Shown in pieces: positions 9,833 through 41,388 of a stretch of DNA of 64,000 bases. The DNA is from an uncultured Nitrospinaceae bacterium (lineage in GTDB: Bacteria; UBA8248). The notes under the pieces are model-generated. The model made no database searches. It had not been told where the DNA came from and saw only the letters and a list, made by a program, of their open reading frames with translations. Each line of letters starts with the position of its first letter. Position 1 is the first letter of the stretch. Location: assembly GCA_964005815.1 (NCBI GenBank), contig CAXFSR010000049.1, forward strand, positions 366-64,365. The letters are read 5' to 3'. A program made the translations under genes and the position numbers.

Positions 9833-10621
9833 TTGAATAAGCCTATTTTTTTTGATGTTGCTTTTAGCTATACCGATGTTCAGGAACATATACTAGAAAT
9901 TAAAAACCGTTTAAAAATAGAACATCAAGATGTTAATTGTGCTGTAGTAGATGTTCTTCGAGCAACAACTACTATTATTTCTTCTTTACACAATAAATGC
10001 TCAGAAATTTATCCAGTAATATCCAAGAATGCTGCAAAGCTTAAAGCAAAAGAATTAATGGGGGAAAATATCAAGAAACAGATCCTGTTAGCCGGAGAAA
10101 AAGATGGAAAAGCTTTAGAAGGATTCGATTTAGGAAATTCACCGTCAAACTTCGATCGTGAGATTGTAGAAAATAATATTCTGATTATATCTACCAGTAA
10201 TGGAACAAAAGCAATAGATGCAGTAAAGCAACAGAAATACGTTATTCTTTTCTCTTTAGCTAATTTAAGTGCGACCGCCTCATCGATTATCAAACCCATC
10301 ATGAAAAATCATAATCTTTTGATTATTTGTTCGGGAAGAAATGGAAAATATTGCGAAGAAGATTCAATAGCTTCTGGGCTCTTAATCAACAAAATAACTA
10401 GTCTTTGGAACGAAAAAGAATTCATCTGTTCTGATAGTGCAAAGGCATCTATACATATAGCGAATTTCTACAAAAAAGACATTCATAAAGCATTCCTGAA
10501 TTGTTCTTGGGGAAAACACCTGATTCAACTAGGTTTGAAAGAAGATTTAGAATTTTGTTCCAGGACAGACTGGTCAGATGTAGTCCCAAAATTAAAAGAT
10601 GGAAAGATTATAGCGTCCTAA
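9833..10621 (+). CDS. 2-phosphosulfolactate phosphatase (ComB) family protein
   Basis: 262 aa. The N-terminal AVVDVLRATTTI motif is characteristic of the ComB family. Confidence 0.7.
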   Translation: MNKPIFFDVAFSYTDVQEHILEIKNRLKIEHQDVNCAVVDVLRATTTIISSLHNKCSEIYPVISKNAAKLKAKELMGENIKKQILLAGEKDGKALEGFDLGNSPSNFDREIVENNILIISTSNGTKAIDAVKQQKYVILFSLANLSATASSIIKPIMKNHNLLIICSGRNGKYCEEDSIASGLLINKITSLWNEKEFICSDSAKASIHIANFYKKDIHKAFLNCSWGKHLIQLGLKEDLEFCSRTDWSDVVPKLKDGKIIAS

Positions 10622-17016: not shown

Positions 17017-17685
17017 ATGAAAAATTTTATATATGCAATTCAAACCGATTTAGACGCCGCATTTGCAAGAGATCCTGCTGTTAATAGTAAGATAGAAATT
17101 ATTCTCTGTTATCCTGGATTTCACGCAATATTTATTCATCGTATTTCGCACTTCATTTTCAAAAAAGGATTAAAGTTAATTCCGCGATTTTTAAGTCATA
17201 TAGGTAGACTACTTACAGGAATTGAAATTCATCCGGGAGCACAGATAGACATAGGGTTTTTTATAGACCATGGGATGGGAGTTGTAATTGGAGAAACCTC
17301 TGTTATCGGAAAGAACTGCACAATTTATCATGGCGTAACTCTTGGGGGCGTAAGCCTAAAAAAAGAGAAAAGGCACCCTACTCTCGAAGATAATGTTTTA
17401 GTTGGAGTAGGGGCACGTATACTTGGACCACATATAATAGGCAAAAACAGTAGAATAGGGGCAGGGTCAGTAGTTATTTCTGATGTCCCTCCGGATTGCA
17501 CAGTTATAGGAGTTCCTGCACGGATTGTTTCAGGATTAAGAAAGGAACCCAATCAAAAACAACAAGAAACTTCTTTTGAACACGACGAACTTCCAGATCC
17601 TATACAAAATTCTATTCAAAATTTAGAAAAAAGAATACAAGACCTTGAAAAAAGAACGAAAGATGAGGAGGCTCCTGGTTTATGA
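17017..17685 (+). CDS. cysE: serine O-acetyltransferase
   Basis: Left-handed beta-helix hexapeptide repeats and an N-terminal SATase domain (DPAVNSKIEIILCYPGFHAIFIHRISH). Confidence 0.85.
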   Translation: MKNFIYAIQTDLDAAFARDPAVNSKIEIILCYPGFHAIFIHRISHFIFKKGLKLIPRFLSHIGRLLTGIEIHPGAQIDIGFFIDHGMGVVIGETSVIGKNCTIYHGVTLGGVSLKKEKRHPTLEDNVLVGVGARILGPHIIGKNSRIGAGSVVISDVPPDCTVIGVPARIVSGLRKEPNQKQQETSFEHDELPDPIQNSIQNLEKRIQDLEKRTKDEEAPGL

Positions 17686-18839
17686 AAAGAATTTATTTAG
17701 ACCACAACTCTACAACACCTATACGTCCTGAAGTGATCAAAATTGCAGAACCTTTCATTACAAATTTTTACGGAAATCCAAGTAGTGTTCACTCTTTTGG
17801 AAGAGAAACCAGAGAAGCAATAGAAAATTCCCGTATTAAAATAGCATCGACAATAAATGCTTCTGATCCAAATGAGATTTTTTTTACTTCTGGTGGAACT
17901 GAGAGTGACAATCTCGCAATTAGAGGAGTTTTTAATAATCAAGAATCAAAATCACATATTATTACAACTCAAATTGAACATAATGCCGTTTTAGATACTT
18001 GCAATCACCTTAGTAGCGAAAGATCGTTAGAAGTAACCTATATAAAACCGGACAAAGATGGTTTAGTGTCTTCGAAAAGAATCAAAGATGCAGTGAAAAA
18101 AAACACAAAATTAATATCCGTAATTTTGGGAAATAATGAAATAGGTACTATTCAACCAATTTCTGAAATTTCAACATTTTGTAAAAATTTGGGGATATTA
18201 TTTCATACAGACGCGGTACAAGCAGTTGGAAAAATGAAAATAGATGTGCAAAAAGATAACATAGATTTATTATCTGGAAGTGGTCACAAAATTAATGCTC
18301 CAAAAGGTATTGGTTTCCTTTATGCAAGAAAAAACACTCCACTTAATGCAATTCTAACTGGAGGTGGCCAAGAACAAAACATAAGATCGGGTACCGAAAA
18401 TGTAGCTGGAATAGTTGCACTAGGTGAAGCATGCAAAATTTTAGATACAGAAGGAAATGAGCTTTGGGGTAATGTTTTAAAATTGAGAGATAGATTAGAA
18501 AATGAGATTTGTGAAAAGATTCCTGATGTTGAAATCATTGGACACAAGACTCAACGTCTTCCTGGAACATCAAATATCGCGTTCTCAAATGCTGAAGGAG
18601 AAACTTTATTAATCAGACTAGATCTTGAAGGGATAGCTGTAAGTACAGGTGCAGCCTGCAGCTCTGGATCAACTGAACCTAGTCATGTTTTACTTTCAAT
18701 GGATCTGCCACAAAATCTTGTTCGTGGTTCTCTTCGTTTTAGTCTGGGTTGGGGAAGTACTGATGAAGATATAGATTATTTAATGGATAAATTACCTTCT
18801 GCAGTTAAAAAGGTTAGAGAAATTGCGCCAAAGAATTAG
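17682..18839 (+). CDS. nifS: cysteine desulfurase (NifS/IscS class)
   Basis: 385 aa. PLP-lysine motif SGSGHKINAPKG and active Cys in STGAACSSG. Start overlaps the cysE stop. Confidence 0.88.
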   Translation: MKRIYLDHNSTTPIRPEVIKIAEPFITNFYGNPSSVHSFGRETREAIENSRIKIASTINASDPNEIFFTSGGTESDNLAIRGVFNNQESKSHIITTQIEHNAVLDTCNHLSSERSLEVTYIKPDKDGLVSSKRIKDAVKKNTKLISVILGNNEIGTIQPISEISTFCKNLGILFHTDAVQAVGKMKIDVQKDNIDLLSGSGHKINAPKGIGFLYARKNTPLNAILTGGGQEQNIRSGTENVAGIVALGEACKILDTEGNELWGNVLKLRDRLENEICEKIPDVEIIGHKTQRLPGTSNIAFSNAEGETLLIRLDLEGIAVSTGAACSSGSTEPSHVLLSMDLPQNLVRGSLRFSLGWGSTDEDIDYLMDKLPSAVKKVREIAPKN

Positions 18840-18862
18840 TTCTAAATTACTAAAGGTAAAAA

Positions 18863-19243
18863 ATGAATAATAGCAACTATCATTATAATTCTATTGTATT
18901 GTCACATATTGCATCGCCTCAAAATGTTGGTATTTTAGAGGACCCTAACTATTTAGGAAAAGGAACTAATCCCTCTTGTGGCGATGAGGTAGAATTGTAT
19001 ATCAAAACAAATGGAGAAAAGATTATTGACGCTAAAATTAAAATCCTTGGGTGTGGAGCAATTACAGCTTCAATGAGTCTACTAAGTAATTTACTTATAG
19101 GTAAATCAATCCAAGATGCAAAAAAAATATCCTCCGAAGATATTGAAAGAAACTTAGGAGGACTTCCTAAACACAAACAGCATTGTTCTAAATTAGCATG
19201 TAGAGTCCTCCAAAACGCTTTTGATAAATCAGAAAATGAATAA
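18863..19243 (+). CDS. nifU: Fe-S cluster assembly scaffold (NifU/IscU N-terminal type)
   Basis: 126 aa with the three scaffold Cys (GNPSCGDE, GCGAITAS, HCSKLA). Confidence 0.85.
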   Translation: MNNSNYHYNSIVLSHIASPQNVGILEDPNYLGKGTNPSCGDEVELYIKTNGEKIIDAKIKILGCGAITASMSLLSNLLIGKSIQDAKKISSEDIERNLGGLPKHKQHCSKLACRVLQNAFDKSENE

Positions 19244-19703
19244 AATATTAGAAAATCCTATGCAAATTCAAATCATTAAGAAAGACCCTATAGAAGGTTC
19301 AGGCATTTCTACATATGGAGATACCACACCTGAGAAAGTAGGACTATTAAGAGGTCAATTTCTTAAACTAATCGGTCATTTACAAATCTTGGACGGAGAT
19401 TGTTATGGAGTCCTATCACCTAACGATAGTTACAAAACTTTTTTGCCAAAAAAGTATCTTTATTCAAATATTGAAAATTTTACTACAATCCAAATTAAAT
19501 CCAACTTATATGCGATAGGAATTCATGAAGGAAGTTACCGAAATTTACCTCAATCACAGGAGAAAATTTTGAAAAATATTAAGGAAAAAGGTCTTGAAAA
19601 AACGGATGACCCTATAGTCCACCGCTTCATGAATGATCCTAGAAAAACTACAGTCCAAGAACTCAGAACAGAAATATGGATAGGAATAATCCAGAAAAAT
19701 TAG
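19236..19703 (+). CDS. hypothetical protein downstream of nifU
   Basis: Its ATG overlaps the nifU stop in an ATGA arrangement (ORF-track start 19221 trimmed to the Met at 19236). No recognisable family. Confidence 0.4.
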   Translation: MNKILENPMQIQIIKKDPIEGSGISTYGDTTPEKVGLLRGQFLKLIGHLQILDGDCYGVLSPNDSYKTFLPKKYLYSNIENFTTIQIKSNLYAIGIHEGSYRNLPQSQEKILKNIKEKGLEKTDDPIVHRFMNDPRKTTVQELRTEIWIGIIQKN

Positions 19704-19719: not shown

Positions 19720-22692
19720 TTATATTTTCTTAATTTTACATAGCAGACTTTTTAAATTTGTCTGACCTGAGATTGGATCTCTCTGTTCTTTACTTGTTAA
19801 GAAATTAACTGAAAACCAAGGATTGTAAGGTTGTTTTTCACCCCATCCAATAGGGATAAAAACAGAATTCTTTCTAATTCCACGATAAAGATAAGCTCTA
19901 GCCGTTATTTTTCCATGGGCTGACTCAACCTCAATAATTTCTCCATCTTCTATGTTTAACGCCCTCGCATGTTCAGGATGAATTTGACAAAAAAGATCTG
20001 GCCACATTTCTTGCGCTTGCCAAAAATAGTGTGTCCAACTGTGAAAATGTGGTGCGGGAGGTCTTCCAGTTATTAGTTCGGTATTAAAACCCTTTTCCCT
20101 TAAACTTCTGGATAAACTTCCTTCCTGCGTTGAGACTATCTTTGCTTTTGATGTTCCAGTAGGAACATCAAAAAATGGAGAAATCACATCTAATCTTTCA
20201 TCATTATCTTCAATTTCTAAAAAGGGCAAATCTATTAGAATCTCTGGATCTGAGTAAAATTCGGGTAAAGCAGATAGATCTAAACAATTAAATTTGTCTT
20301 CCAATTCTTTAGTCCAAAACTCTAGTTTTCCGCTTTTTGTTGGGAATCTTTTTCCTTCTGGTTGACCAACTGCCGTTGTTCCTTCTAAGTAAAGGGTTTC
20401 TTGTTCAAGAGAATCTTCATATTTTACTGGGTATCGAACCCATCTATAAGGAACTGAATGTAGTCGTTTCTGAGTCACTCCACTGAGAAAATCATTTTGT
20501 ATACACATTTCATCCCAAAATATTTTTGGATCCTTGTATTCTTCCTTAAGAACATCATTAAATCCTAAACGTTTTCCCAATTCTATCCATATCCACCCAT
20601 CAGGTTTTGCCTCTCCAGGAGGATCTATCAATTTATCAATCCAAACAATTCGTCGATCATCATTGCTTCTTCCTATTTCTCCCTTTTCGATTCCCGTTGC
20701 TGCAGGTAATACATAATCAGCAAATGCAGAAGTCTCGTTTTGAAACAACTCAATATGCACTAGAAGATCTAAGTTCCTTAAGGCATCTCTTACATTATTT
20801 TGATCTGGCCACTGAGCTAAGGGATTACTTGAACTTATCATTCCTTTTACAGGATAAGGTTTCTCATGTTTCATTGCATTAAGCCAACCGACGGGACTCT
20901 TCCTTATTTTTGGCCTGTTAATTTTTTCTCTTCTTTCTAATGGAGCATTTGGCGAAATAGGTGGGCCTGCCGTCATATTGAAATAAGCTCCCCCCTTACG
21001 TCCCCAATTACCAGTAATAGCGCTTACAAACATCCAGGCTCGATTTGTTTGCAAAGAATTCATATGTTGATTTATACCCCTACTCGCAAAAATTACACAT
21101 CCATCTGAATTAGCAATCTCACTTGCAAGCAATTCAATCTCTTTTTGAGGCAAATCAATTATTTCAGAAGCCCATTCCGGACTATAATCTTTTTCAAAGA
21201 TAAATTCTTTCCATTCTTCCCACCCTAAAACCCAATCATTACAAAACTTTGCGTCATGCAAATTCTTTGAAAAAACCTCGTGTGCTATTGATAATGCTAA
21301 TGCCATATCTGTCCCAGGTCGTATTGGCAACCATTTATCTGCTTTACTAGCTGTTACAGTCTGTCTAGGATCAATAACAACCATCTTTGCTTTATTTTTG
21401 ACTCTCCAATCATTAATCTTTCCAAAATAAACTGGACGTGTTTCAGCCTGATTATCCCCTACATAAAGGTACATTTCTGCACTACCAAGATCAGTCGGGG
21501 TATAACTATTTCCACTTCCATTTACTCCCTGAGTAATCTGATAAGAGATTGTTTTTCCAGAAGCACAAAATGGGTCAGTACCTTCAATATTATGGGTTCC
21601 CCACAACTGACTAAATAATCTCGTATACCCTTTTTGAGTAAGAATGCCAGTTCTAGTCCCAATAAATATAGCAAGTGCTTCCGGTCCCCATTTTTCTTTT
21701 AACTGTCTTAACTTTTCAGCAATTTCATCTAACGCTTGCTCCCATGTAATTTTCTCAAACTTATTTTCACCTCTTTTTCCTACTCTTTTCAGAGGAGTTA
21801 GAAGCCTTTTTTTATTATGATGAAGTTGCAATCCAAATTGTGCTTTAGGACATATTTTTCCCTCCAAAACAGGATCTTCATCATTCCCAGTTATTTGTAC
21901 TAGTTTGTCATCCTCAAAATGAAATTTTGTAGTACAGCAATTAAAGCAAATATTGCAACCACCCGGTTCGATTCTAGTGTCAATCTTCCGATTTTTTTCA
22001 AAACCAAATGGAAAGTTTGCCTCTAATTTTTTAGGTGAAATAGGATCATTTTTAAAATCAGACTTTTGAGATCGTATTCTATTTTGAACATGATTTTTTT
22101 CCATTATAGGAATAGATGAACTGGGACCTTTTAATCTCTCTAAATAAATTGTCTGCGGTTTCAGTAAAAAGCTATCAACATCTTTAATAACTCTCTCTTG
22201 TTTTTTAGCAATTTTAAGTAATTCAGAACGTTCTCCAAAAGTAATCGCATATCCTGGACATACAATAGAACAAGCTGGTTCTAATTCATTCTCACGTCTC
22301 TCAGAACAAAGGTCACATTTAACAGAGTGATGTCCTTCTCCATCAAAACCCATAGCACTATAAGGACAGGACAGAATACATTCACCACATCCTGTACATA
22401 ATTCTTCATGGACTTTTACTACACCAGTTTCTTCGTCTTTAGTTATCGCTTTTGGATTTACAGGACATGATCTAAGACAAGCAGGTCGTTCACAATGTTG
22501 GCAAGTTAACGTAAAGAAATCTATATCCGGACTATTCTCATTTCCAAGCCATACAACTTTATTCCTGTATGTTCCCGGTTTTAGATGATGCTCCTGTTTA
22601 CATGCTGCCTCGCAACTTTTACAACCGAAACATCTTTCTAAATCAATCATTAGTGCTAGTCGATTCAATTTCAATCCTTTTCCATTAGACAA
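19720..22692 (-). CDS. molybdopterin (bis-MGD) oxidoreductase with fused N-terminal 4x[4Fe-4S] ferredoxin (beta-alpha fusion); substrate unknown
   Basis: 990 aa. Residues 1-150 carry four CxxCxxCxxxCP clusters as in DmsB/PsrB/FdnH. Then comes a MopB FS0 motif (CNICFNCC...C) and a long molybdopterin catalytic domain. There is no Tat signal and no in-frame UGA. Confidence 0.8.
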   Translation of the reverse strand: MSNGKGLKLNRLALMIDLERCFGCKSCEAACKQEHHLKPGTYRNKVVWLGNENSPDIDFFTLTCQHCERPACLRSCPVNPKAITKDEETGVVKVHEELCTGCGECILSCPYSAMGFDGEGHHSVKCDLCSERRENELEPACSIVCPGYAITFGERSELLKIAKKQERVIKDVDSFLLKPQTIYLERLKGPSSSIPIMEKNHVQNRIRSQKSDFKNDPISPKKLEANFPFGFEKNRKIDTRIEPGGCNICFNCCTTKFHFEDDKLVQITGNDEDPVLEGKICPKAQFGLQLHHNKKRLLTPLKRVGKRGENKFEKITWEQALDEIAEKLRQLKEKWGPEALAIFIGTRTGILTQKGYTRLFSQLWGTHNIEGTDPFCASGKTISYQITQGVNGSGNSYTPTDLGSAEMYLYVGDNQAETRPVYFGKINDWRVKNKAKMVVIDPRQTVTASKADKWLPIRPGTDMALALSIAHEVFSKNLHDAKFCNDWVLGWEEWKEFIFEKDYSPEWASEIIDLPQKEIELLASEIANSDGCVIFASRGINQHMNSLQTNRAWMFVSAITGNWGRKGGAYFNMTAGPPISPNAPLERREKINRPKIRKSPVGWLNAMKHEKPYPVKGMISSSNPLAQWPDQNNVRDALRNLDLLVHIELFQNETSAFADYVLPAATGIEKGEIGRSNDDRRIVWIDKLIDPPGEAKPDGWIWIELGKRLGFNDVLKEEYKDPKIFWDEMCIQNDFLSGVTQKRLHSVPYRWVRYPVKYEDSLEQETLYLEGTTAVGQPEGKRFPTKSGKLEFWTKELEDKFNCLDLSALPEFYSDPEILIDLPFLEIEDNDERLDVISPFFDVPTGTSKAKIVSTQEGSLSRSLREKGFNTELITGRPPAPHFHSWTHYFWQAQEMWPDLFCQIHPEHARALNIEDGEIIEVESAHGKITARAYLYRGIRKNSVFIPIGWGEKQPYNPWFSVNFLTSKEQRDPISGQTNLKSLLCKIKKI

Positions 22693-22694
22693 TG

Positions 22695-23474
22695 CTATTT
22701 AGATATATGCCACCAGTATATATCAGAGCCATCGGAAACATAGCTAGCAAAAAAAGTAACTACAATTATATGAGCAATAAGACCAAGAAAAAAAATAATC
22801 GATAAAGATATATGAATCGATCTCCAAAAACGAATAAAAAAATTATATTCAAATTTTTTTCTTATACAAGAATTTTCTTGACGGACTAAATTATAAAATT
22901 GAATGGAAAAAATAGGATGGCAAAACCAATGTTTAAGACTAAGAGAAAAAGTACCCTCTTCACTATCAGGGTCAAACGATAACAATAATTTTTCTTTCTT
23001 GGAAATTATCAATTCTATTTTTTCTTTTTCATGGGGTTCCATAGTGTGAAAGACTTCAATTTTTGAAGCAAAAAGTTTTGCATTCCTCTTAGAAATATAA
23101 AACCTTGCAAAAACCCCTAAAAGTGTTAGAGCTAAGAGTGCTAAAAGTAGTAATGCTGGAGCGTACCTTAAATGACCAGAAGAGTGAATTGTAACTAAGA
23201 CAGAACCAATAACTGCTGTTACTACGTGACAATTAAACCAAAATACTGGTTTTTTACTTACGTTTGTTCTCTTAAGCAATAAGAAAAGGATAGAAACAGA
23301 TAAAAATAAAGAACCAATCACACCAAAAACATAAAGTACTGGGGAACCTGGCATATGCCACATAGATGGCAATAAATGCAAAAATGAAAAATATCCAAAC
23401 AAACTAAGGGAAGCAATAGATATAAGGTATGCAAGTATCCTATCTTGTATTGATAAAGACTGCTTTTTTTTCAT
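22695..23474 (-). CDS. integral membrane protein, putative heme-b membrane anchor of the molybdoenzyme
   Basis: 259 aa with about 5 TM helices and conserved-looking His residues inside the helices (FLHLLPSMWHM, CHVVT...TIHSSGHL, LIAHIIVV). It lies immediately upstream of the Mo-enzyme gene, and its 4-nt start overlap with the greA stop supports co-expression. Confidence 0.55.
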   Translation of the reverse strand: MKKKQSLSIQDRILAYLISIASLSLFGYFSFLHLLPSMWHMPGSPVLYVFGVIGSLFLSVSILFLLLKRTNVSKKPVFWFNCHVVTAVIGSVLVTIHSSGHLRYAPALLLLALLALTLLGVFARFYISKRNAKLFASKIEVFHTMEPHEKEKIELIISKKEKLLLSFDPDSEEGTFSLSLKHWFCHPIFSIQFYNLVRQENSCIRKKFEYNFFIRFWRSIHISLSIIFFLGLIAHIIVVTFFASYVSDGSDIYWWHISK

Positions 23475-23950
23475 TCAAATTCTATTTTTGAAACTTTAAC
23501 TATCTCAAAAGTTCTAATACCACCAGGAAGTTTAATAACTACCTCGTCCCCAGATTCCTTCTGCATCAATCCTCTTGCAAGGGGAGCGTTGAAAGAAATA
23601 ATACCTTTAGACAAATCACTTTCTTCTTCACCAAGAATTTGGTAGGTCATTTCTTCATCCTTGTCGATATCATATAGTTGAACCTCAGTCCCAACGGAAA
23701 CTTTATCACCAGATATAGGAAGTTCTTCAATTATTTGTGCAGTTCGTATTTTCTCTTTCAATCTACTTACTTCATGTTGTAAATTTCTTTGGAGTTCAAT
23801 AGCAGCCTCCCATTCTGCATTTTCACTTAAATCCCCAAGATCAGCAGCTTTCCCGATTTCTTTTGCCACATCATGTTTAAGACGATGCTCTATTTCCTCA
23901 ACCTTATCTTTTAAATTTATTAGGCTTTGATTTGTTAAATAAAATGCCAT
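23471..23950 (-). CDS. greA: transcription elongation factor GreA
   Basis: 159 aa with an N-terminal coiled-coil and a C-terminal FKBP-like domain (GDEVVIKLPGGIRTFEIVKV). Confidence 0.85.
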   Translation of the reverse strand: MAFYLTNQSLINLKDKVEEIEHRLKHDVAKEIGKAADLGDLSENAEWEAAIELQRNLQHEVSRLKEKIRTAQIIEELPISGDKVSVGTEVQLYDIDKDEEMTYQILGEEESDLSKGIISFNAPLARGLMQKESGDEVVIKLPGGIRTFEIVKVSKIEFE

Positions 23951-23994: not shown

Positions 23995-24912
23995 TTAAAC
24001 AGACAAATCTCTAAAATCAAATCCTGTCTCAGAAACGAATTCGTTAATTATCTTTTCAGTTATTGGACCGGGCACAGGATTTTTTGGAAAAAAACGATCT
24101 ATTTGATTTACAGGCATCGCACAAATAGCACTTGATGTCAGAAAAAATTCATCTGCCTGGCTTAAATCATAGAGAGTTATATCTCTCTCTTCAAAAGCAA
24201 CACCTAACTTTCTAGCCATTTCTAATACTGTTAGCCTTGTAACGCCTTGAAGAACATTTTTTTCATAAGGAGTGTAAAGCACATTATCTTTAACCATAAA
24301 AAAGTTTGCTACTGAATTCTCAGCAACATTTCCATAAATATCAAGCATTAGGGATAGAGAACCATTAGAAGAAGCATCAAGTTCTGCTAAAATTTGATTC
24401 ATTTTACTGGTCACTTTTGCCCTAGCTTCAAGACATTGGGGTGGAACCCTTCTTGTCGCCACAACTGATAATTTCACCCCCTTAGAATATTTATCTATTA
24501 GTTTATCAGAAGGAGATTCTCTCCAGAAAATGAAAATTGTCGGCCTATCTGATTCACTTGCAACCATAGAGGGATCATCCAATCCTCTTGATACCCAATG
24601 GCCAACTCGATAAATCTTTCCCTCTCCAAGTGAATCTTGATTTGCTTTTAATGTTTTAAGAGTTGCTTCTCTCATCTCTTCTATATCTAAATGGCAATGA
24701 ATTTGAGTATATCTCAAAGATCTATAAAGTCGTTTTAGATGGTCATCAAGACGGAATAATTTGCCATTAAAACAAGGAGTAACCTCATAAACTCCGTCCC
24801 CCCATAAAAATCCACGATCAAAAGGAGAAATTAGAGCCTCACTCTCTCCTATTATTTCCCCATTTAAATAAACATAGCGTTCTAAAGACATAAAAAATAC
24901 TTTCAATTTCAT
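23995..24912 (-). CDS. class IV aminotransferase (branched-chain / D-amino-acid aminotransferase family)
   Basis: 305 aa. FDRGFLWGDGVYE and a class-IV fold signature. Confidence 0.8.
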   Translation of the reverse strand: MKLKVFFMSLERYVYLNGEIIGESEALISPFDRGFLWGDGVYEVTPCFNGKLFRLDDHLKRLYRSLRYTQIHCHLDIEEMREATLKTLKANQDSLGEGKIYRVGHWVSRGLDDPSMVASESDRPTIFIFWRESPSDKLIDKYSKGVKLSVVATRRVPPQCLEARAKVTSKMNQILAELDASSNGSLSLMLDIYGNVAENSVANFFMVKDNVLYTPYEKNVLQGVTRLTVLEMARKLGVAFEERDITLYDLSQADEFFLTSSAICAMPVNQIDRFFPKNPVPGPITEKIINEFVSETGFDFRDLSV

Positions 24913-24956
24913 TAATAGAAACAGTAAGACATTTTAATCATATCAAATTTCTGCTC

Positions 24957-26561
24957 TCAATTTAATTTTTTCTTTCCCCAACCACCTCCACCAGGAGTTT
25001 CTAATCTTATTATGTCTCCTTTTTCTAGATACAGGCGTTGTTTCCCCTTACACTTAATTCTCTTTCCATCTTTTTTTAAAACCGAATTCTTTCCTTTCTT
25101 ACCTGGGAAACCACCTTGCAGAGCCCAAGGTGAAAATTTTCGCCTTTCTGTCATAAAAGAAACCGTAGCAGAACTTAAAAGTTCTATTTCTCTAATTATT
25201 CCATCCCCACCTGTCATTAAACCTTTTCCTCCACTTTTTCTTCTAACTCCATACTTATTAACTCTTAGAGGATATGAATGCTCAATAGCTTCTATAGGGG
25301 TATTTCTCGTATTCGTTAGGTGGGTATGTATTGCATTTTCACCATTTCCCCATTTTCCGGCACCCATTCCACCTCCTGTGGTTTCATAATATGCAAAAGG
25401 TTTCCTTCTTTCTTTCTTAGAACGTATATCATTACCTCCAATGGTAAGATTATTCATCGACCCACACGAAGCGGAGGGTATTTTATCAGGGCATGCTTTC
25501 GACATAGCACCAAGGACTACGTCAACCATCCTTTGACTAGTCTCTACATTTCCTCCAGCAACAGCAGATGGAAATTTAGAATTAACTACGGTTCCAAATG
25601 GCGCAATTACCTTAATAGGTTCCATACAACCAGAGTTATTTGGAATTTCAAATGGTATCAAACAACGAATAGCATAATAAACTGCTGTTCTAGCTATAGA
25701 TTCAACCGCATTAATATTTCCATCTGTTTGGAGAGAAGAACCAGTGAAATCAGCTACAATAGAGTCTTTTCGAATAATAATTTTCACACTAATTTTCACG
25801 GGATTCTCAGATATACCGTCATCATCCATAAAATCCGTAAAATCAAATTCCCCTTCTGGCATCTTAGAAATTGCGACTCTTGTCATTCGCTCAGAATAGC
25901 GTTGTAACTCAGTTGTATAAAAAGAAGTATTTTTTAGTCCATATCTATCAATGATCATCTCAATTCTTCTTTGTCCTACAAGATTTGCAGAAATTTGTGC
26001 CAGGACATCACCTTTTCGTTCTTCCGGTGTTCTTACATTCGATAAAACAATAGATAATAAATCTTCTTGTATTATTCCTTTCCTAACTATTTTAACAGGC
26101 GGAATAACTAATCCATCTTGAAAAATTTCTTTAGTTAAACTCATTGAACCTGGCGCAATGCCTCCAATATCGGCGTGATGTGCTCTATTTGCAACAAAAT
26201 ATTGAAGAGAAAATCTTCTGTTCCTCTTTATAAATATCGGAGATATCATTGTTAGATCTGGCAAATGATTGCCTCCATGAAACGGATCATTGAGAACAAC
26301 CATATCGCCAGGGTCCAAATTCATAGTTTCAATAACATGTTCAACCGACATTGGCATTGAACCAAGATGTGCAGGTAGATGAGCCGCTTGAGATACCATT
26401 TTTGCATTCTTATCAAAAATAGCACATGAATAATCTCTTCTCTCTTTAATATTTGGAGAAAAAGAAGACTTACATAGAGAAACTCCCATTTCTTCTGCAG
26501 TTGACAAGAAAAGATTTTTAAATATCTCTAATAAAATTGGATCTAAGCTATTCTTTCCCAT
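24957..26561 (-). CDS. hydantoinase B / oxoprolinase family protein
   Basis: 534 aa with HyuB-like motifs (NDPFHGGNHLPD). Paired with a HyuA-family gene downstream. Confidence 0.85.
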   Translation of the reverse strand: MGKNSLDPILLEIFKNLFLSTAEEMGVSLCKSSFSPNIKERRDYSCAIFDKNAKMVSQAAHLPAHLGSMPMSVEHVIETMNLDPGDMVVLNDPFHGGNHLPDLTMISPIFIKRNRRFSLQYFVANRAHHADIGGIAPGSMSLTKEIFQDGLVIPPVKIVRKGIIQEDLLSIVLSNVRTPEERKGDVLAQISANLVGQRRIEMIIDRYGLKNTSFYTTELQRYSERMTRVAISKMPEGEFDFTDFMDDDGISENPVKISVKIIIRKDSIVADFTGSSLQTDGNINAVESIARTAVYYAIRCLIPFEIPNNSGCMEPIKVIAPFGTVVNSKFPSAVAGGNVETSQRMVDVVLGAMSKACPDKIPSASCGSMNNLTIGGNDIRSKKERRKPFAYYETTGGGMGAGKWGNGENAIHTHLTNTRNTPIEAIEHSYPLRVNKYGVRRKSGGKGLMTGGDGIIREIELLSSATVSFMTERRKFSPWALQGGFPGKKGKNSVLKKDGKRIKCKGKQRLYLEKGDIIRLETPGGGGWGKKKLN

Positions 26562-26584
26562 ATATTCAATCCTAAGAAAACAAA

Positions 26585-28585
26585 TTATTTTTTATCAGAA
26601 TTTACTATTTTCGATAAAATCAAATTACTCTCTTTATCCACTTTACAATTCCAAAATGGTGGAATTATAGATGTAGCACTAAATTCAGAGACTAAAGCAG
26701 GTCCACAGAAATCTTCCCCTGGTTGTAGATTTGTACGATCAAAAACCATAGCTTCATATGATTTTCCATCAAAAACCATCTTTTGTGTTTTCTCTTTTTT
26801 CTTTTTCATATTGTCACTTTTTTTATTTAGTTCAACTGTCTTTGTAGAACCTATTGCCCTAACTCTTATGTTAACGATTTCCACCTCTTGTTCAGAATTT
26901 AAAGTTAGATATCTTTTTTTATAAAATTTAGTAAATAACGAATACAAATCCACATGGAAGTTCGATGTAATCTCCCCAATTGGAATGGTTAGTTCGTGCG
27001 ATTGTCCTAAATAACGCATATCTAAAAATTTTTCTATTTTAAATTGATTAACCCCTTCTTTTTCCAAATCTACTTTTGCTTGTTTTAGAAGAGGGGAAAA
27101 AGAGTCCTCCAAGTTTTGACTCTTAATATTCTCCAATTTCAGAAGCACTGTTTTAGAGTAATCTTTGATTATATCGGCTAAAAACATTCCTCTTGCTGAA
27201 AGGGTTCCGGGATCTGCTGGAATAAGTACTCTTTTCATATTAAGAGTTTCCGCAAGCGCACAAGCATGCATGGGTCCTGCTCCACCGAATGCCATCAGTG
27301 TAAAAATACGAGGATCATATCCTCTCTCAATACTCATAAGTCTAACAGCATTAGCCATATGTTCGTTAGCAATTGTTAAAATTCCCTCAGCAGTTTCTAA
27401 TAGACTAAGAGATAATTCTTTTGCTAGAACTTTTATTCCTTTTTCTGACCTACAAGGATCAATTTTCATCTTTCCACCAAGAAAATTCAGAGGATCTATC
27501 CTTCCTAAAAATAAATTCGCATCAGTCACAGTCACTTTATTTCCGTTTCCATAGCACATAGGCCCAGGATCTCCTCCTGCACTTTTTGGTCCTACTACAA
27601 GCGCTCCTCCTAGATCACATTCTGCAATTGAACCACCTCCTGCACCAACAGTATGAATATCAATAACTGGCACTCTAACGGGCAGACCAGATAATTCTGT
27701 CTCAGAAGTGAAACTTAAATTCTCATCGATAATTGAGACATCAGCACTCGTTCCACCCATATCAATAGTTAAAAATTTAGATAATTTGGTTTTTTTAGCT
27801 ACATGGAATGCTCCGACAACTCCTCCTGCAGGGCCAGACAAAATTGTCCTAACAGCTTCATTGCTAGCTACTTCAGAAGAAATAATTCCGCCATTACTTT
27901 GCATTACACGGAAATGTTTTAATGTTTCTTCTTTTGCAAGTTTATCTAAATAATTTTTCATCAACGGTGATACATAGGCATTCACTGCTGTTGTACTAGT
28001 CCTCTCAAACTCCCTATATTCGGGCAAAATAAGACTAGAGACAGAAACAGGAAAACCTTCTTTTATAAAAAAATTTGATGCCTCTAACTCGTGTATATTA
28101 TTTGCATAAGAATGAAGTAAACAAATTGCTAAAGATTGTATTTTGTTCCTTTTTAATTTTAAGAGTATTTTCTTTAATTCAGATTTAGAAAGATTGTGCA
28201 AAATATCACCATTTTCATTCATTCTTTCCCTTAGTCCAAAACGATTTTCTTTATCAACAATAGATTTAGGCCTTTGGTATTTCAGATCATAAAGGACATC
28301 CCTATTCTGACGTCCAATTTCAATTACATCTTCAAACCCAGATGTTGTAATAAGACCAACTTTTGCACCCTCTCTAGACAAAAGAGCATTTGTCGCGACT
28401 GTCGAACCATGAATAAGATCAACTGGTCTATTATCAGTATTTTTTTCGGCTATCCCTTGTATGATTGCAGTAGCCGGATTCGAAGGTGTAGAAGGCAATT
28501 TATGAACATTTAGCTTTCCATTTTCAAGAAAAACAAAATCGGTAAATGTCCCACCAGTATCAACTGCAACACGAAAATCTGTCAA
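26585..28585 (-). CDS. hydantoinase A / oxoprolinase family protein
   Basis: 666 aa. The N-terminal VDTGGTFTDFV motif is the HyuA/acetone-carboxylase-beta ASKHA fold. Confidence 0.85.
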   Translation of the reverse strand: MTDFRVAVDTGGTFTDFVFLENGKLNVHKLPSTPSNPATAIIQGIAEKNTDNRPVDLIHGSTVATNALLSREGAKVGLITTSGFEDVIEIGRQNRDVLYDLKYQRPKSIVDKENRFGLRERMNENGDILHNLSKSELKKILLKLKRNKIQSLAICLLHSYANNIHELEASNFFIKEGFPVSVSSLILPEYREFERTSTTAVNAYVSPLMKNYLDKLAKEETLKHFRVMQSNGGIISSEVASNEAVRTILSGPAGGVVGAFHVAKKTKLSKFLTIDMGGTSADVSIIDENLSFTSETELSGLPVRVPVIDIHTVGAGGGSIAECDLGGALVVGPKSAGGDPGPMCYGNGNKVTVTDANLFLGRIDPLNFLGGKMKIDPCRSEKGIKVLAKELSLSLLETAEGILTIANEHMANAVRLMSIERGYDPRIFTLMAFGGAGPMHACALAETLNMKRVLIPADPGTLSARGMFLADIIKDYSKTVLLKLENIKSQNLEDSFSPLLKQAKVDLEKEGVNQFKIEKFLDMRYLGQSHELTIPIGEITSNFHVDLYSLFTKFYKKRYLTLNSEQEVEIVNIRVRAIGSTKTVELNKKSDNMKKKKEKTQKMVFDGKSYEAMVFDRTNLQPGEDFCGPALVSEFSATSIIPPFWNCKVDKESNLILSKIVNSDKK

Positions 28586-40245: not shown

Positions 40246-41388
40246 GTGGATTTTGAATTTGATGAAAAACAGAAATTAATGCAAAGAACTTTAGATGATT
40301 TGCTCAAAAGAGTTTGTCCCCAAGAATATTCTATGGAATGTGACGAAAAAGGCGAAGCACCAATGGAAGCCTATAAAGAAATGGCTAAAGATGGATGGAT
40401 TGGGGTATCTACTCCTGAAGAATTTGGGGGTATGGGAGGAAATGAAATTGATATGTCTATAGTTTTAGAAACCGCGGGACATCATTATCTAGATTTGGGA
40501 ACTATGATTTTTCGGAATATCTGCTATGGATGTGATGCAATCTTAACAAGTGGAACTCCAGAACAGAAGAAAAAATTTGTAACTTCAACCGTCAAGGGAG
40601 AAACTTACTTTGCATTCAGTTTAACCGAACCCGATGCAGGCTCTGATGCTGCTTCTATTATAACCCGAGCAGATAGAGAACAGGACGTTTTCAAAATTAC
40701 TGGAACGAAAAATTATACTTCTGGCATGCCTATAGCTACAGATGTTTTAGTTGCAGTCAGAACAAACAAAAACGCAAAAAAACATGAAGGAATTACCAAC
40801 TTCATCATCCCTGCCGATAGAGAAGGTATTGAATGGAAAAAACTGCGTTTGATGGGACATAGAGCAATGGGAACATGTGAAGTTCATTACAATGGTGTCG
40901 AAGCTTCAGAAACAGAAATTTTAGGAGATCTAGATGATGGATGGAATGGATTAATGAAATACATTACAACAGAGAGATTATGTCTATCTGCAGCCAGAAC
41001 AGGTGCTGCAGCAAGCGCTCTAAAAATGGCGATAAAACACGCTCAAGAACGGCATCAATTTGGAAGACCTATTGGAAAGTTTCAAGCTGTTAGCCACATG
41101 ATTACGGAAATGCATACTCTAGTAGATACTGCTCGATTGCAAGTTTATAGATTTGCATGGCTTGCCTCCCAAGGTCATGCTGGGAGGTTAGAAGCTGCCA
41201 CCCTAAAACTATACGCTGCTGAGGCCTATAAAAAAGTTGCAGATTTAGGTGTACAAGTACTAGGAGGATATGGATATAGTGCAGAATTTCCAATGGAAAG
41301 ACATTATAGAGATGCGCGCCTTGCGACTATTGGAGCAGGTTCAAGTGAAATTCAAAGGAATATTATTGCAAAGGAATTAGGACTGTAG
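40246..41388 (+). CDS. acyl-CoA dehydrogenase
   Basis: 380-aa ACAD fold (three domains). The C-terminal GGYGYSAEFPMERHYRDARLATIGAGSSEIQ matches the ACAD signature. Confidence 0.85.
   Translation: MDFEFDEKQKLMQRTLDDLLKRVCPQEYSMECDEKGEAPMEAYKEMAKDGWIGVSTPEEFGGMGGNEIDMSIVLETAGHHYLDLGTMIFRNICYGCDAILTSGTPEQKKKFVTSTVKGETYFAFSLTEPDAGSDAASIITRADREQDVFKITGTKNYTSGMPIATDVLVAVRTNKNAKKHEGITNFIIPADREGIEWKKLRLMGHRAMGTCEVHYNGVEASETEILGDLDDGWNGLMKYITTERLCLSAARTGAAASALKMAIKHAQERHQFGRPIGKFQAVSHMITEMHTLVDTARLQVYRFAWLASQGHAGRLEAATLKLYAAEAYKKVADLGVQVLGGYGYSAEFPMERHYRDARLATIGAGSSEIQRNIIAKELGL

What the first reader, a model, noticed from the sequence alone, without database searches (positions are those of the whole stretch)
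19720..23950. greA / His-rich membrane protein / fused ferredoxin-molybdopterin oxidoreductase operon of unknown substrate
The 990-aa enzyme fuses a complete four-cluster ferredoxin (the normally separate beta subunit of DMSO-reductase-family complexes) to the bis-MGD catalytic subunit. It has no Tat signal, so a cytoplasm-facing active site is expected. The gene directly upstream encodes a 5-TM protein with His residues inside TM helices, consistent with a di-heme cytochrome b quinol-interacting anchor. It bears no resemblance to the NrfD/PsrC-type anchors that usually accompany such enzymes. The anchor's start overlaps the greA stop (ATGA), so a transcription factor gene appears translationally coupled to a respiratory-type enzyme. 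There is no in-frame UGA, so it is not a Sec-type formate dehydrogenase.
Basis: partly seen in the sequence, partly recalled or inferred. Interest (0 to 1): 0.7.

Follow-up and report, generated by a model that had tools for sequence, protein, structure and literature searches.

The report
Cytoplasmic molybdoenzyme with dihaem anchor
Two adjacent genes encode an uncharacterised but widespread membrane-bound molybdenum enzyme: its iron-sulfur "wire" is fused to the catalytic subunit, it faces the cell interior, and its anchor looks like a two-haem cytochrome b. The substrate is unknown, and the neighbouring greA gene is a bystander.

Summary
On the minus strand lie greA (23471-23950), a 259-aa five-helix membrane protein (22695-23474) and a roughly 982-990-aa fusion of a four-cluster ferredoxin with a bis-MGD (MopB) catalytic subunit (19720-22692). 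The fusion has no Tat signal and no in-frame stop.

The real unit is the membrane gene plus the fusion gene. They are adjacent in 62 of 65 species-level genomes (Nitrospinota, Alpha-, Beta- and Gammaproteobacteria); the three exceptions are cut by contig ends. No third gene is universal. greA is upstream only in Nitrospinota-type lineages, so that link is lineage-specific gene order, not function.

The membrane protein has four invariant histidines, as two H-x13-H pairs on TM3 and TM5. It weakly matches DUF4405, a family shown to bind haem b. Its 87-residue loop is predicted to be cytoplasmic.

The catalytic domain is Cys-ligated (FCA, not Cys/Sec-His). It scores far below every curated family cut-off and forms its own clade, whose nearest relatives are Tat-exported, unfused enzymes.

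Best reading: a quinone-linked, cytoplasm-facing molybdoenzyme with Nar-like topology built from different parts, and an unknown substrate. Cytoplasmic sulfite oxidation is a weak lead. I found no published description.

Verdict: new variant of a known kind; moderate to high interest.

The parts
19720..22692 (-). Gene for the fused iron-sulfur / molybdopterin oxidoreductase (longest ORF 990 aa). The likely start is TTG 22668 (982 aa); public gene calls use ATG 22650 (976 aa).
   Evidence: ORF; Pfam domains; at least 120 full-length homologues at 60-100% identity; start-codon reasoning.
22183..22653 (-). N-terminal four-cluster ferredoxin domain (residues ~14-170). It has four Cys groups: C21/24/27/31, C64/67/72/76, C99/102/105/109 and C126/129/141/145.
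   Evidence: Fer4_11 at 1.3e-23 and DmsB, FDH-beta, NrfC and TtrB models hit; PsrB (2vpw_B) at 7.9e-25; all 16 Cys invariant; codons checked.
21973..22182 (-). Variable linker between the ferredoxin domain and the MopB domain (residues ~171-240).
   Evidence: No Pfam hit here; few invariant columns in this stretch of alignment A3.
19723..21972 (-). MopB (bis-MGD) catalytic domain, residues ~241-990. It includes the FS0 [4Fe-4S] motif C246-x2-C249-x3-C253-x27-C281 (21850-21957).
   Evidence: Molybdop_Fe4S4, Molybdopterin (2.5e-49) and Molydop_binding (1.1e-21); best solved relative is PsrA 2vpw at 6e-65; below every NCBIfam cut-off.
21565..21567 (-). Codon of Cys376, the predicted molybdenum ligand, in the motif DPFCASGK. 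The next residue is Ala, not His.
   Evidence: Aligns with the 'SLCTAP' Cys of PsrA and the 'ARLCHAP' Cys of FdhF in the alignments. That these are the metal ligands is from my own knowledge of those structures. F375 and C376 are invariant; codon checked.
22695..23474 (-). Gene for the 259-aa five-helix membrane protein, the predicted dihaem cytochrome b anchor (divergent DUF4405-like).
   Evidence: ORF; family of 262 clusters at 50% identity; directly upstream of the fusion gene in 62 of 65 loci; 56 of 61 members weakly hit DUF4405; AF2 model pLDDT 85, pTM 0.80.
23184..23228 (-). TM3 histidine pair H83 ... H97 (H-x13-H): one ligand for each predicted haem.
   Evidence: Invariant in 61 of 61 sequences; codons checked.
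22770..22814 (-). TM5 histidine pair H221 ... H235 (H-x13-H): the second ligand for each predicted haem.
   Evidence: Invariant in 61 of 61 sequences; codons checked.
22836..23096 (-). Helical loop of about 87 residues between TM4 and TM5 (residues 127-213), predicted cytoplasmic. It is the likely docking surface for the ferredoxin domain.
   Evidence: Mean 15.6 K+R across 61 sequences, against 1.5 or fewer in the other-side loops; invariant F135, K160, L164, E173, P187 and E200. The docking role is inferred, not shown.
23471..23950 (-). greA, a transcript-cleavage factor. It is adjacent and overlaps by 4 nt (ATGA), but I do not count it as part of the system.
   Evidence: Pfam and NCBIfam; overlap; upstream only in Nitrospinota-type loci.

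Best explanation
Genes 22695-23474 and 19720-22692 encode a self-contained, two-polypeptide membrane complex of the 'complex iron-sulfur molybdoenzyme' kind. A Cys-ligated Mo/W-bis-MGD catalytic domain and its four-cluster ferredoxin form one cytoplasmic polypeptide in beta-alpha order, with no Tat export. This polypeptide docks on a five-helix membrane protein that binds two haems b through H83/H221 (cytoplasmic side) and H97/H235 (periplasmic side).

Electrons would run: Mo - FS0 - FS1-4 - haem b (inner) - haem b (outer) - quinone/quinol. The overall topology is that of NarGHI, but every part comes from a different lineage.

Shown: the domain content, the cofactor-ligand motifs, their invariance, the obligate gene pairing and the lack of an export signal. 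Inferred: haem binding, docking, coupling to quinone, and the direction of electron flow.

My lean on direction is a reductase: quinol oxidised near the conserved periplasmic face, and an oxidised substrate reduced in the cytoplasm, which would generate proton-motive force. The substrate is unknown. greA lies next to the pair only through lineage-specific gene order.
For: Architecture and cofactor motifs.

No signal peptide: the first Fe-S Cys is 13-21 residues from the start and there is no RR motif.

Obligate pairing: the membrane gene is immediately upstream on the same strand in 62 of 65 species-level loci across at least two phyla, and the 3 exceptions are cut by contig ends. The same pair sits on a Pseudohalocynthiibacter plasmid. 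The flanking genes differ.

Haem ligands: four invariant His as two H-x13-H pairs on TM3 and TM5.

Family link: 56 of 61 members weakly hit DUF4405, and a few hit Ferric_reduct or Ni_hydr_CYTB. A purified DUF4405 protein binds haem b (PMC11334425).

Topology: the positive-inside count puts the N-terminus, loop 2 and the 87-residue loop 4 inside.

Conserved periplasmic-face residues (W39, G43, S44, Y48, G100, P106, Y245, W254, W255, H256) are compatible with an outer quinone site.

Catalytic competence: the Mo-ligand Cys, FS0 and the pterin-binding domains are conserved, and the QrcB-like cofactor-less model scores 155 bits against a cut-off of 440.
Against: No experiment exists for any member.

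The window protein itself scores only 15.8 bits (E 0.021) on DUF4405, below the 26.7-bit gathering score.

I could not inspect the His-His geometry in the model.

Quinone coupling and direction rest on analogy only. A cytoplasmic dehydrogenase with a dihaem anchor (as in Bacillus succinate:menaquinone reductase) is equally possible on architecture alone.

The TauD-family neighbour in 10 alphaproteobacterial loci points to the oxidative direction, with sulfite as substrate.
Confidence: 0.65

Rival explanations
1. [quoted passage not shown] It would be a functional analogue of SoeABC that removes sulfite released inside the cell from organosulfonates.
For: A TauD/TfdA-family dioxygenase lies immediately upstream on the same strand in 10 alphaproteobacterial species-level loci. 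It hits Pfam TauD at 3e-65, and its nearest NCBIfam model is taurine dioxygenase at 240-253 bits. It is the most frequent neighbour. A TauE/SafE-family gene lies about 6 kb away in 5 gammaproteobacterial loci. A 'putative sulfate exporter' lies 6 kb away on the Pseudohalocynthiibacter plasmid. The enzyme is Cys-ligated, lacks Tat and faces the cytoplasm, as described for SoeA (PMC10100899). The best solved relative is a sulfur-compound enzyme, PsrA.
Against: TauD adjacency covers only about 16% of loci, all from one class. It behaves like the other lineage-specific neighbours (recA, Pat-like, greA), which are plainly unrelated in function. The TauD homologues fall below the taurine dioxygenase cut-off of 313 bits. 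SoeABC uses a haem-free NrfD-type anchor; a dihaem wire across the membrane is not needed for a strongly exergonic oxidation. I could obtain no SoeA sequence or model to test relatedness.
Confidence: 0.2
2. The cytochrome b is not a quinone-reactive anchor. It is a transmembrane electron conduit, like MsrQ or the flavinylation-associated DUF4405 proteins, linking the cytoplasmic Fe-S/Mo protein to an unidentified periplasmic donor or acceptor.
Against: No conserved periplasmic partner gene accompanies the pair in 62 loci. No ApbE or flavinylation genes appeared among the neighbours. All characterised MopB plus four-cluster plus membrane-subunit complexes couple to quinones (established knowledge of the complex iron-sulfur molybdoenzyme family).
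Confidence: 0.1
3. It is simply a member of a well-characterised cytoplasmic clade, either a formate dehydrogenase (FdhF/Fdh-alpha type) or an assimilatory nitrate reductase, with an accessory ferredoxin domain.
For: The top NCBIfam hit is Fdh-alpha at 320-322 bits and NasC scores 236 bits. HDCR FdhF (7qv7) is the second-best solved relative.
Against: All scores are less than half of the curated cut-offs (666 and 1100). The residue after the ligand Cys is Ala, not the His of formate dehydrogenases. Identity to E. coli FdhF, FdnG and NapA is about 24%. In a neighbour-joining tree the family groups with uncharacterised Tat-exported relatives (86-93% bootstrap), apart from the FdhF/FdnG/NapA group (84%).
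Confidence: 0.04
4. greA is functionally part of the system, translationally coupled so that expression of the enzyme is tied to a transcript-cleavage factor.
For: There is a 4-nt ATGA overlap in the window and in L012. No terminator-like site was found between the genes.
Against: greA is absent within 8 kb of the pair in every proteobacterial locus. In L004 and L013-L015 there is a 5-nt gap instead of an overlap. Other lineages carry unrelated housekeeping genes such as recA at that position. This greA is an ordinary full-length GreA.
Confidence: 0.02

Closest known systems
NarGHI, respiratory nitrate reductase A
   Same: A cytoplasm-facing MopB catalytic subunit without Tat export, a four-cluster Fe-S subunit, and a dihaem cytochrome b anchor with two His on each of two helices. 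Electrons cross the membrane between an outer quinol site and an inner active site. This is the best analogue for how the system probably works.
   Different: NarG is an Asp-ligated, roughly 1250-aa enzyme. The narG model scores only 41.6 bits against a cut-off of 1084, and identity is about 21%. The subunits are separate and need NarJ. NarI gave no sequence match to the anchor. Here the beta and alpha parts are fused and the ligand is Cys.
PhsABC / PsrABC, thiosulfate and polysulfide reductases
   Same: These are the nearest characterised catalytic subunits by sequence: PsrA 2vpw at 6e-65, the PhsA model at 290 bits, and 27% identity. They share the Cys ligand and the four-cluster beta subunit. 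PhsC is a cytochrome b anchor.
   Different: They are Tat-exported and periplasmic, with three separate subunits. PsrC is a haem-free NrfD-type anchor. hhalign of the anchor family against PhsC was insignificant (E 0.054 over 24 columns). The PhsA cut-off of 694 bits is not reached.
FdnGHI, formate dehydrogenase-N
   Different: It is periplasmic, with a Sec-His active site. The His ligands in FdnI are spread over three helices (my own knowledge). The formate-DH-alpha model scores 142 bits against a cut-off of 814.
SoeABC, cytoplasmic sulfite:quinone oxidoreductase
   Same: It faces the cytoplasm, lacks Tat, is a Cys-ligated MopB enzyme linked to quinone, and occurs in aerobic and phototrophic Proteobacteria (PMC10100899; PMC10839748).
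   Different: It has three separate subunits and a haem-free NrfD-type SoeC anchor. I could not test sequence relatedness because no SoeA sequence or curated model was available to me.
ActB of Alternative Complex III
   Same: It is the known precedent for fusing a MopB-like module and a four-cluster Fe-S module in one polypeptide (PMC10100899).
   Different: By my own knowledge, ActB has the opposite order (MopB-like first). It has lost the Mo cofactor and several clusters (PMC10100899). It is periplasmic and works with NrfD-type subunits. Here the ligand Cys, FS0 and all 16 ferredoxin Cys are kept.
DUF4405 cytochromes, MsrQ and the ferric-reductase-domain superfamily
   Same: These are membrane helical bundles with four central His that bind haem b. 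A DUF4405 protein was purified with haem b (PMC11334425). 56 of 61 anchor-family members give weak DUF4405 hits. The H-x13-H spacing on two helices separated by one helix is that of NOX/FRD TM3 and TM5 and of cytochrome b helices B and D (my own knowledge).
   Different: The match is below Pfam's gathering score for the window protein. This family has five helices plus an 87-residue cytoplasmic insertion. Its partner is a cytoplasmic molybdoenzyme, not an extracytosolic flavoprotein or MsrP.

Membership tests
MopB / DMSO reductase superfamily (Mo/W-bis-MGD enzymes) | Molybdopterin, Molydop_binding and N-terminal Fe4S4 domains above Pfam gathering scores | tested here: met
   168.6 against 24, 77.4 against 26.8, and 24.9 against 22.7 bits.
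MopB / DMSO reductase superfamily (Mo/W-bis-MGD enzymes) | FS0 motif C-x2-C-x3-C-x(26-34)-C, and a protein ligand to the metal at the canonical position | tested here: met
   C246, C249, C253 and C281 are present. C376 aligns with the Cys of PsrA and FdhF. All are invariant.
Four-cluster ferredoxin subunit (DmsB / FdnH / PsrB / NrfC type) | Four Cys groups (16 Cys) that bind four [4Fe-4S] clusters | tested here: met
   Fer4_11 at 83.5 bits against 26.2. The 16 Cys lie in four groups and all are invariant. PsrB 2vpw_B matches at 7.9e-25.
Formate dehydrogenase alpha (TIGR01591; FdhF type) | Score at or above the curated cut-off of 666 bits | tested here: not met
   320-322 bits.
Formate dehydrogenase alpha (TIGR01591; FdhF type) | Sec or Cys metal ligand followed directly by His | tested here: not met
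   The motif is F-C376-A377, against 'LCH' in FdhF of 7qv7. There is no in-frame UGA.
Thiosulfate / polysulfide reductase (PhsA NF012032; PsrA) | Score at or above the cut-off of 694 bits, and a Tat signal | tested here: not met
   290 bits. There is no RR motif and the first Fe-S Cys lies 13-21 residues from the start.
Assimilatory nitrate reductase (NasC NF047855) | Score at or above the cut-off of 1100 bits | tested here: not met
   236 bits.
Respiratory nitrate reductase NarG (TIGR01580) | Score at or above the cut-off of 1084 bits | tested here: not met
   41.6 bits; about 21% identity.
SoeABC sulfite dehydrogenase | Orthology of the catalytic subunit to SoeA | not testable with these tools
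   NCBIfam has no SoeA model. I could not retrieve a SoeA sequence, and plasmid hits from sulfur oxidisers proved to be other enzymes.
SoeABC sulfite dehydrogenase | Three separate subunits with an NrfD-type, haem-free membrane subunit | tested here: not met
   Alpha and beta are fused. The anchor gives no NrfD hit and carries four invariant TM His.
DUF4405 (PF14358), haem b-binding membrane proteins | Pfam score at or above the gathering score of 26.7 bits | tested here: inconclusive
   The window protein scores 15.8 bits, E 0.021. 56 of 61 family members hit at E<1, the best at 6.3e-6. One database member carries the precomputed Pfam hit PF14358, and a different member is named 'DUF4405 domain-containing protein' by NCBI.
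Dihaem transmembrane cytochrome b (general) | Four conserved intramembrane His positioned to ligate two haems | tested here: met
   H83, H97, H221 and H235 are invariant in 61 of 61 sequences. Both pairs are H-x13-H, on TM3 and TM5. Actual haem binding was not tested.
Dihaem transmembrane cytochrome b (general) | Fold similarity to solved dihaem cytochromes b | tested here: inconclusive
NrfD / PsrC-type anchor | Sequence match to the NrfD family | tested here: not met
   No NrfD hit in Pfam or NCBIfam for the window protein or for any of 61 family members.
GreA transcript-cleavage factor (for ORF 23471-23950) | TIGR01462 score at or above the cut-off of 139 bits, with both GreA/GreB domains | tested here: met
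   140.6 bits; both Pfam domains present.

The most novel reading that the evidence does not exclude
The pair is the founding example of an unrecognised, widely distributed class of quinone-linked molybdoenzyme. It would be a Nar-like, cytoplasm-facing redox-loop complex assembled independently from a Psr/Phs-like Cys-ligated catalytic lineage, a fused beta subunit and a DUF4405-type dihaem cytochrome. It would act on a substrate that none of the characterised MopB families handles in the cytoplasm. It occurs in marine Nitrospinota, pelagic Alphaproteobacteria and soil or groundwater Burkholderiales. In that case it would mark an unaccounted electron sink or source in aerobic and microaerobic bacteria.
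Probability: 0.4. Interest if true: 0.75.

Novelty: new variant of a known kind. Interest (0 to 1): 0.6.

Why it matters
MopB enzymes drive much of the microbial redox chemistry of nitrogen, sulfur, arsenic, selenium, chlorine and iodine. New clades have repeatedly turned out to be new activities.

This clade is abundant. At least 120 clusters at 90% identity hold the fusion protein, and 262 clusters at 50% identity hold the anchor. It is strongly conserved, at 60-68% identity between phyla, and is plasmid-borne in one isolate. It is annotated only as 'molybdopterin-dependent oxidoreductase' plus 'hypothetical protein'.

It shows a third way to attach a molybdoenzyme to the membrane on the cytoplasmic side, besides NarI and SoeC. 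It also gives DUF4405-type cytochromes a first molybdoenzyme partner.

Two cultured carriers make it directly testable: Halomonas pelophila CS7 and Pseudohalocynthiibacter aestuariivivens RR4-35.

Tried and rejected
1. Looked for a universal third gene with an all-against-all clustering of neighbours and a Pfam census of 106 flanking ORFs. None exists; each lineage has its own neighbour. My first two home-made gene callers lost real genes in GC-rich loci (partly), so I added the TauD genes by hand from BLAST coordinates.

2. Tried to obtain a SoeA reference. NCBIfam has no such model. The Thioclava and Pseudosulfitobacter plasmid hits were other enzymes. The SoeA question stays open.

3. The first AF2 model, built on 8 sequences, was poor (pLDDT 64). 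I replaced it with a 61-sequence run (pLDDT 85).

4. The Foldseek afdb50 library was not available. Foldseek against the PDB gave no significant hit. hhalign against PhsC was insignificant.

5. No Moco riboswitch or any other Rfam family is present in the window. No terminator-like sites were found, and promoter-like sites were no more frequent than in shuffles.

6. No Moco-biosynthesis genes appeared among the window ORFs of 250 aa or more that I annotated. A 64-kb window cannot settle this.

7. I checked whether a TPP enzyme at 53194-54867 is the sulfite-releasing Xsc. It scores 206 bits against a cut-off of 676 and is closer to acetolactate synthases, so I rejected it.

8. Seven literature searches and seven papers read found no description of this module (for the searches; for the papers).

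9. The loci at 40-42% identity (L069, L070) and the loci at 33% or lower (L077-L091) from the genome scan are not the same family. They lack the anchor, and the one I examined, L070, is unfused.

Full report
**1. What is in the sequence**

Three consecutive minus-strand ORFs occupy the flagged interval:
- greA, 23471-23950, 159 aa.
- A 259-aa ORF, 22695-23474.
- A 990-aa ORF, 19720-22692.

greA is an ordinary full-length GreA. Both Pfam domains are present, and TIGR01462 scores 140.6 bits against a cut-off of 139.

The ATG of the 259-aa ORF overlaps the greA stop, giving ATGA.

The 990-aa ORF carries a Fer4_11 four-cluster ferredoxin domain at residues ~14-170. A variable linker follows, and then the three domains of a bis-MGD (MopB) catalytic subunit. 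I located the cofactor ligands codon by codon:
- 16 Cys in four groups.
- The FS0 motif C246-x2-C249-x3-C253-x27-C281.
- Cys376, in the motif DPFCASGK.

All of these are invariant in an alignment of 12 homologues at 61-69% identity.

In HMMER alignments to solved structures, Cys376 falls on the Cys of PsrA ('SLCTAP') and of FdhF ('ARLCHAP'). The next residue here is Ala, not the His of formate dehydrogenases.

The ORF has no internal stop and no twin-arginine motif. The first Fe-S cysteine lies 13-21 residues from any possible start, which leaves no room for a signal peptide.

*Start codon.* Public gene calls begin at ATG 22650, giving 976 aa. Homologues conserve 'RLALMIDLERC' upstream of that Met, and one of them has Leu at the Met position. 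A TTG at 22668 lies 6 nt after AAAGGA. It would give MNRLALMIDLERC, parallel to MSRLALMIDLERC in P0020. I take 22668 as the likely start (982 aa).

**2. The functional unit is a gene pair; greA is a bystander**

The fusion protein has at least 120 database clusters at 60-100% identity, all full-length and with the same domain order. The only names given are 'molybdopterin-dependent oxidoreductase' or generic COG-style labels.

Context look-ups in a Rhodospirillales MAG, a Burkholderiales MAG, two further metagenomic contigs and a 68%-identical relative all show a Pfam-less gene of about 260 aa directly upstream. That gene is homologous to the window's membrane protein at 39-44% identity, E 2e-58 to 1e-77.

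A scan of one genome per species returned 65 loci with 50% or more identity. They come from:
- Nitrospinota.
- Alphaproteobacteria, including Rhodospirillales and Hyphomicrobiales.
- Beta/Burkholderiales.
- Gammaproteobacteria, including the isolate Halomonas pelophila CS7 and the Olavius Gamma-3 symbiont.

An HMM of the membrane family finds the gene immediately upstream on the same strand in 62 of these 65 loci. In the other three the contig ends within 121 nt of the match.

The pair also sits on a mobilizable plasmid of the isolate Pseudohalocynthiibacter aestuariivivens RR4-35. There it is annotated 'hypothetical protein' plus 'molybdopterin-dependent oxidoreductase'.

No third gene is universal. 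A clustering of neighbours and a Pfam census of 106 flanking ORFs gave these counts of immediate neighbours:

| Neighbour family | Loci | Lineage |
|---|---|---|
| TauD family | 10 | Alphaproteobacteria |
| Pat-like acyl-CoA synthetase/acetyltransferase | 8 | Burkholderiales |
| RecA | 6 | Gammaproteobacteria |
| GreA | 5 | Nitrospinota-type |

greA is upstream only in L004, L008-L010 and L012-L016. In L004 and L013-L015 a 5-nt gap replaces the overlap. The greA link is therefore inherited gene order in one lineage. Co-transcription in this organism is still plausible, since no terminator-like site lies between the genes.

**3. The membrane protein**

A whole-library HMMER search found a compact family: 262 clusters at 50% identity, nearly all 250-285 aa when complete.

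In a 61-sequence alignment, H83, H97, H221 and H235 are invariant, H256 is present in 60 of 61 and H182 in 57 of 61. The other His residues of the window protein are not conserved.

The AF2 model built on that alignment has pLDDT 85.3 and pTM 0.80. It shows helices at 11-30, 45-69, 76-98, 106-144 and 212-241, with a helical insertion between the last two. The four invariant His therefore form two H-x13-H pairs, on TM3 and TM5. By my own knowledge this is the spacing seen in cytochrome b helices B and D and in NOX/FRD TM3 and TM5.

K+R counts over the family:

| Segment | Mean K+R |
|---|---|
| N-terminus | 2.0 |
| Loop 2 (9 residues) | 2.6 |
| Loop 4 (87 residues) | 15.6 |
| Loop 1 | 1.5 |
| Loop 3 | 1.5 |
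| C-terminus | 0.6 |

This indicates N-in and C-out, with loop 4 in the cytoplasm. It puts H83 and H221 near the inner face and H97 and H235 near the outer face.

Sequence links:
- The window protein gives only a sub-threshold DUF4405 hit (15.8 bits).
- 56 of 61 family members hit DUF4405 at E<1, the best at 6e-6.
- A few members hit Ferric_reduct, Ni_hydr_CYTB or DUF4079.
- One member is named 'DUF4405 domain-containing protein' by NCBI.

A DUF4405 protein has been purified and shown to bind haem b, with four central His (PMC11334425). The DUF4405 model also overlaps the cytochrome b subunits of hydrogenase and formate dehydrogenase (PMC12727194; PMC7755780).

No NrfD/PsrC signal appears anywhere.

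**4. Where the catalytic domain belongs**

No curated NCBIfam model is reached:

| Model | Score (bits) | Cut-off (bits) |
|---|---|---|
| Fdh-alpha | 322 | 666 |
| PhsA | 290 | 694 |
| NasC | 236 | 1100 |
| DmsA/YnfE | 229 | 778 |
| ArrA | 147 | 1600 |
| TtrA | 69 | 1750 |
| NarG | 42 | 1084 |

The best solved relatives are PsrA (2vpw, 6e-65), HDCR FdhF (7qv7) and acetylene hydratase.

Among 72,556 plasmids, only the Pseudohalocynthiibacter record holds the family. Every other annotated relative is 34% identical or less.

The nearest non-fused relatives are all exported:
- A Nitrospira enzyme, 40% identical over 750 residues, with a TRRSFLK Tat signal. It is followed by a separate beta subunit beginning MMVDLERCIGCKSCEAACK and by a NarJ-like chaperone.
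- Nostoc and Streptomyces proteins of 838-841 aa, with RR signals, at 31-35% identity.

I built a rough neighbour-joining tree: 19 sequences, 711 columns, 200 bootstraps, with E. coli FdhF, FdnG, NapA, DmsA, BisC, NarG and PhsA as references. Its results:
- The fused family is monophyletic (100%).
- It is sister to the Nitrospira enzyme (93%).
- Next come the Nostoc and Streptomyces proteins (86%).
- This clade is separate from FdhF/FdnG/NapA (84%) and from DmsA/BisC (98%).
- The link to PhsA is unsupported (31%).

The tree lacks Psr, Ttr, Arr, Aio and, above all, SoeA/bSreA references, which I could not obtain. I therefore conclude 'unclassified Cys-ligated clade nearest Psr/Phs and Fdh/Nas/Nap', not 'new deep branch'.

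The pattern suggests a cytoplasmic offshoot of a periplasmic alpha-beta enzyme. That offshoot lost the Tat signal and the chaperone, fused beta in front of alpha, and acquired a haem-bearing anchor.

**5. How it most likely works**

*Shown.* One polypeptide keeps every ligand for a Mo/W-bis-MGD site, FS0 and four further [4Fe-4S] clusters. It has no export signal. It is always encoded next to a membrane protein with four invariant, correctly spaced intramembrane His and a large cytoplasmic loop.

*Inferred.* The loop docks the ferredoxin end. Two haems b span the membrane. The outer face reacts with quinone or quinol. That face is strongly conserved: W39, G43, S44, Y48, G100, P106, Y245, W254, W255, H256.

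This is the NarGHI layout. By analogy, I lean towards a quinol-driven reductase whose transmembrane electron transfer contributes to proton-motive force.

The opposite direction is the main rival. Its best candidate substrate is sulfite, because a TauD-family, potentially sulfite-releasing dioxygenase lies immediately upstream in 10 alphaproteobacterial species. TauE/SafE and sulfate-exporter family genes also occur nearby in a few loci. I weight this lead low. The other lineage-specific neighbours (recA, greA, Pat-like) are clearly unrelated to the enzyme's function, so adjacency within one lineage is weak evidence here.

A third possibility is that the cytochrome is a conduit to a periplasmic partner rather than a quinone site, as proposed for other DUF4405 proteins. 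No such partner gene is conserved, however.

**6. Novelty and verdict**

Seven full-text searches and seven papers read found no description of this gene pair, of a beta-alpha fused cytoplasmic MopB enzyme with a cytochrome b anchor, or of DUF4405 in a molybdoenzyme context (for the searches; for the papers). A large MopB survey lists ActB as a fusion case and SoeA/bSreA as an under-appreciated cytoplasmic radiation (PMC10100899).

All the building blocks are known. The combination and the clade are not characterised. I rate it a new variant of a known kind: a well-supported, widespread, experimentally tractable orphan enzyme complex. The greA coupling does not.

Limits of this work:
- No experimental data exist for any member.
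- I could not inspect the model's coordinates.
- No multimer prediction was possible.
- The reference set for the phylogeny is incomplete.

Noticed in passing
L102:2815-5340 (Streptomyces sp. NBC_01708 plasmid): An 841-aa, Tat-signal MopB protein 31-33% identical to the window enzyme sits inside an arsenic-resistance cluster (arsR, ACR3 arsB, arsO, this MopB, more arsR genes, arsC). An uncharacterised exported molybdoenzyme in an ars operon may be an arsenic-transforming enzyme.
   Followed up: partly
L070:7836-11375 (Nitrospira sp. MAG): This is the closest non-fused relative, 40% identical over 750 aa. It is a Tat-exported alpha subunit followed by a separate four-cluster beta subunit and a NarJ-like chaperone, with no homologue of the membrane protein. 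It represents a periplasmic sister clade of unknown function.
   Followed up: partly
L029, L032, L033, L035, L036, L037, L052, L056, L063, L071 (about 1 kb upstream of the membrane gene): A TauD/TfdA-family dioxygenase lies directly upstream on the same strand in 10 alphaproteobacterial species. Its nearest model is taurine dioxygenase, at 240-253 bits against a cut-off of 313. This is a possible sulfite link, or just lineage-specific gene order.
   Followed up: yes
window 22648-22692: Public gene calls start the fusion gene at ATG 22650. Conservation of 'RLAL' upstream, and an AAAGGA 6 nt before TTG 22668, indicate that database entries for this protein are probably about 6 residues short at the N-terminus.
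   Followed up: yes
window 22695-22745 (C-terminal tail of the membrane protein): A periplasmic C-terminal 'I-x-W-W-H' motif is almost invariant across the family: W254 is invariant, W255 is 90% or more, and H256 is present in 60 of 61. Its role is unknown; it could be a quinone site, a haem propionate contact or a fifth ligand.
   Followed up: partly
L092 (Pseudohalocynthiibacter plasmid pRR4-35_5, 90 kb, mobilizable): The gene pair is plasmid-borne in a cultured Rhodobacterales strain. It lies next to a LysR regulator, a 'hybrid-cluster NAD(P)-dependent oxidoreductase', Rieske, amidohydrolase and betB genes, and a second unrelated MopB gene with a ferredoxin and a desaturase. Together with the 60-68% identity between phyla, this points to horizontal spread.
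   Followed up: partly
window 8057-9685 (-): A 542-aa ORF with no Pfam or NCBIfam hit at all.
   Followed up: no
window 23995-28585 (-): A class IV aminotransferase plus a hydantoinase B / hydantoinase A (oxoprolinase-like) pair lies upstream of greA. This block is conserved together with greA and the enzyme pair in the Nitrospinota-type relatives.
   Followed up: no
window 17017-19703 (+): A cysE-like acetyltransferase, a NifS-like cysteine desulfurase, a NifU/IscU scaffold and a GyrI-like small-molecule-binding protein converge on the 3' end of the fusion gene. This Fe-S assembly cluster is also conserved in the Nitrospinota-type relatives.
   Followed up: no
window 34456-61168: The window holds several paralogue pairs: two S15 X-Pro dipeptidyl-peptidase-family proteins (34456-36102, 57836-59461), two TPP enzymes (53194-54867, 59480-61168), two family III CoA-transferases (42331-43533, 54920-56110) and two acyl-CoA dehydrogenases (40246-41388, 49051-50226). 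This suggests a duplicated catabolic island.
   Followed up: no
window 9833-10621 (+): A 2-phosphosulfolactate phosphatase (ComB) family protein scores below the equivalog cut-offs. This family is tied to sulfolactate and coenzyme M chemistry and is unexpected in a Nitrospinota-like genome.
   Followed up: no
window 1-64000: GC content is 30-40% and GC skew is negative over most of the window. The closest genome is a marine Nitrospinota MAG (XB_MAG82, 87% identity for the fusion protein). No tRNA search was run, and no Rfam family reached threshold anywhere in the 64 kb.
   Followed up: partly
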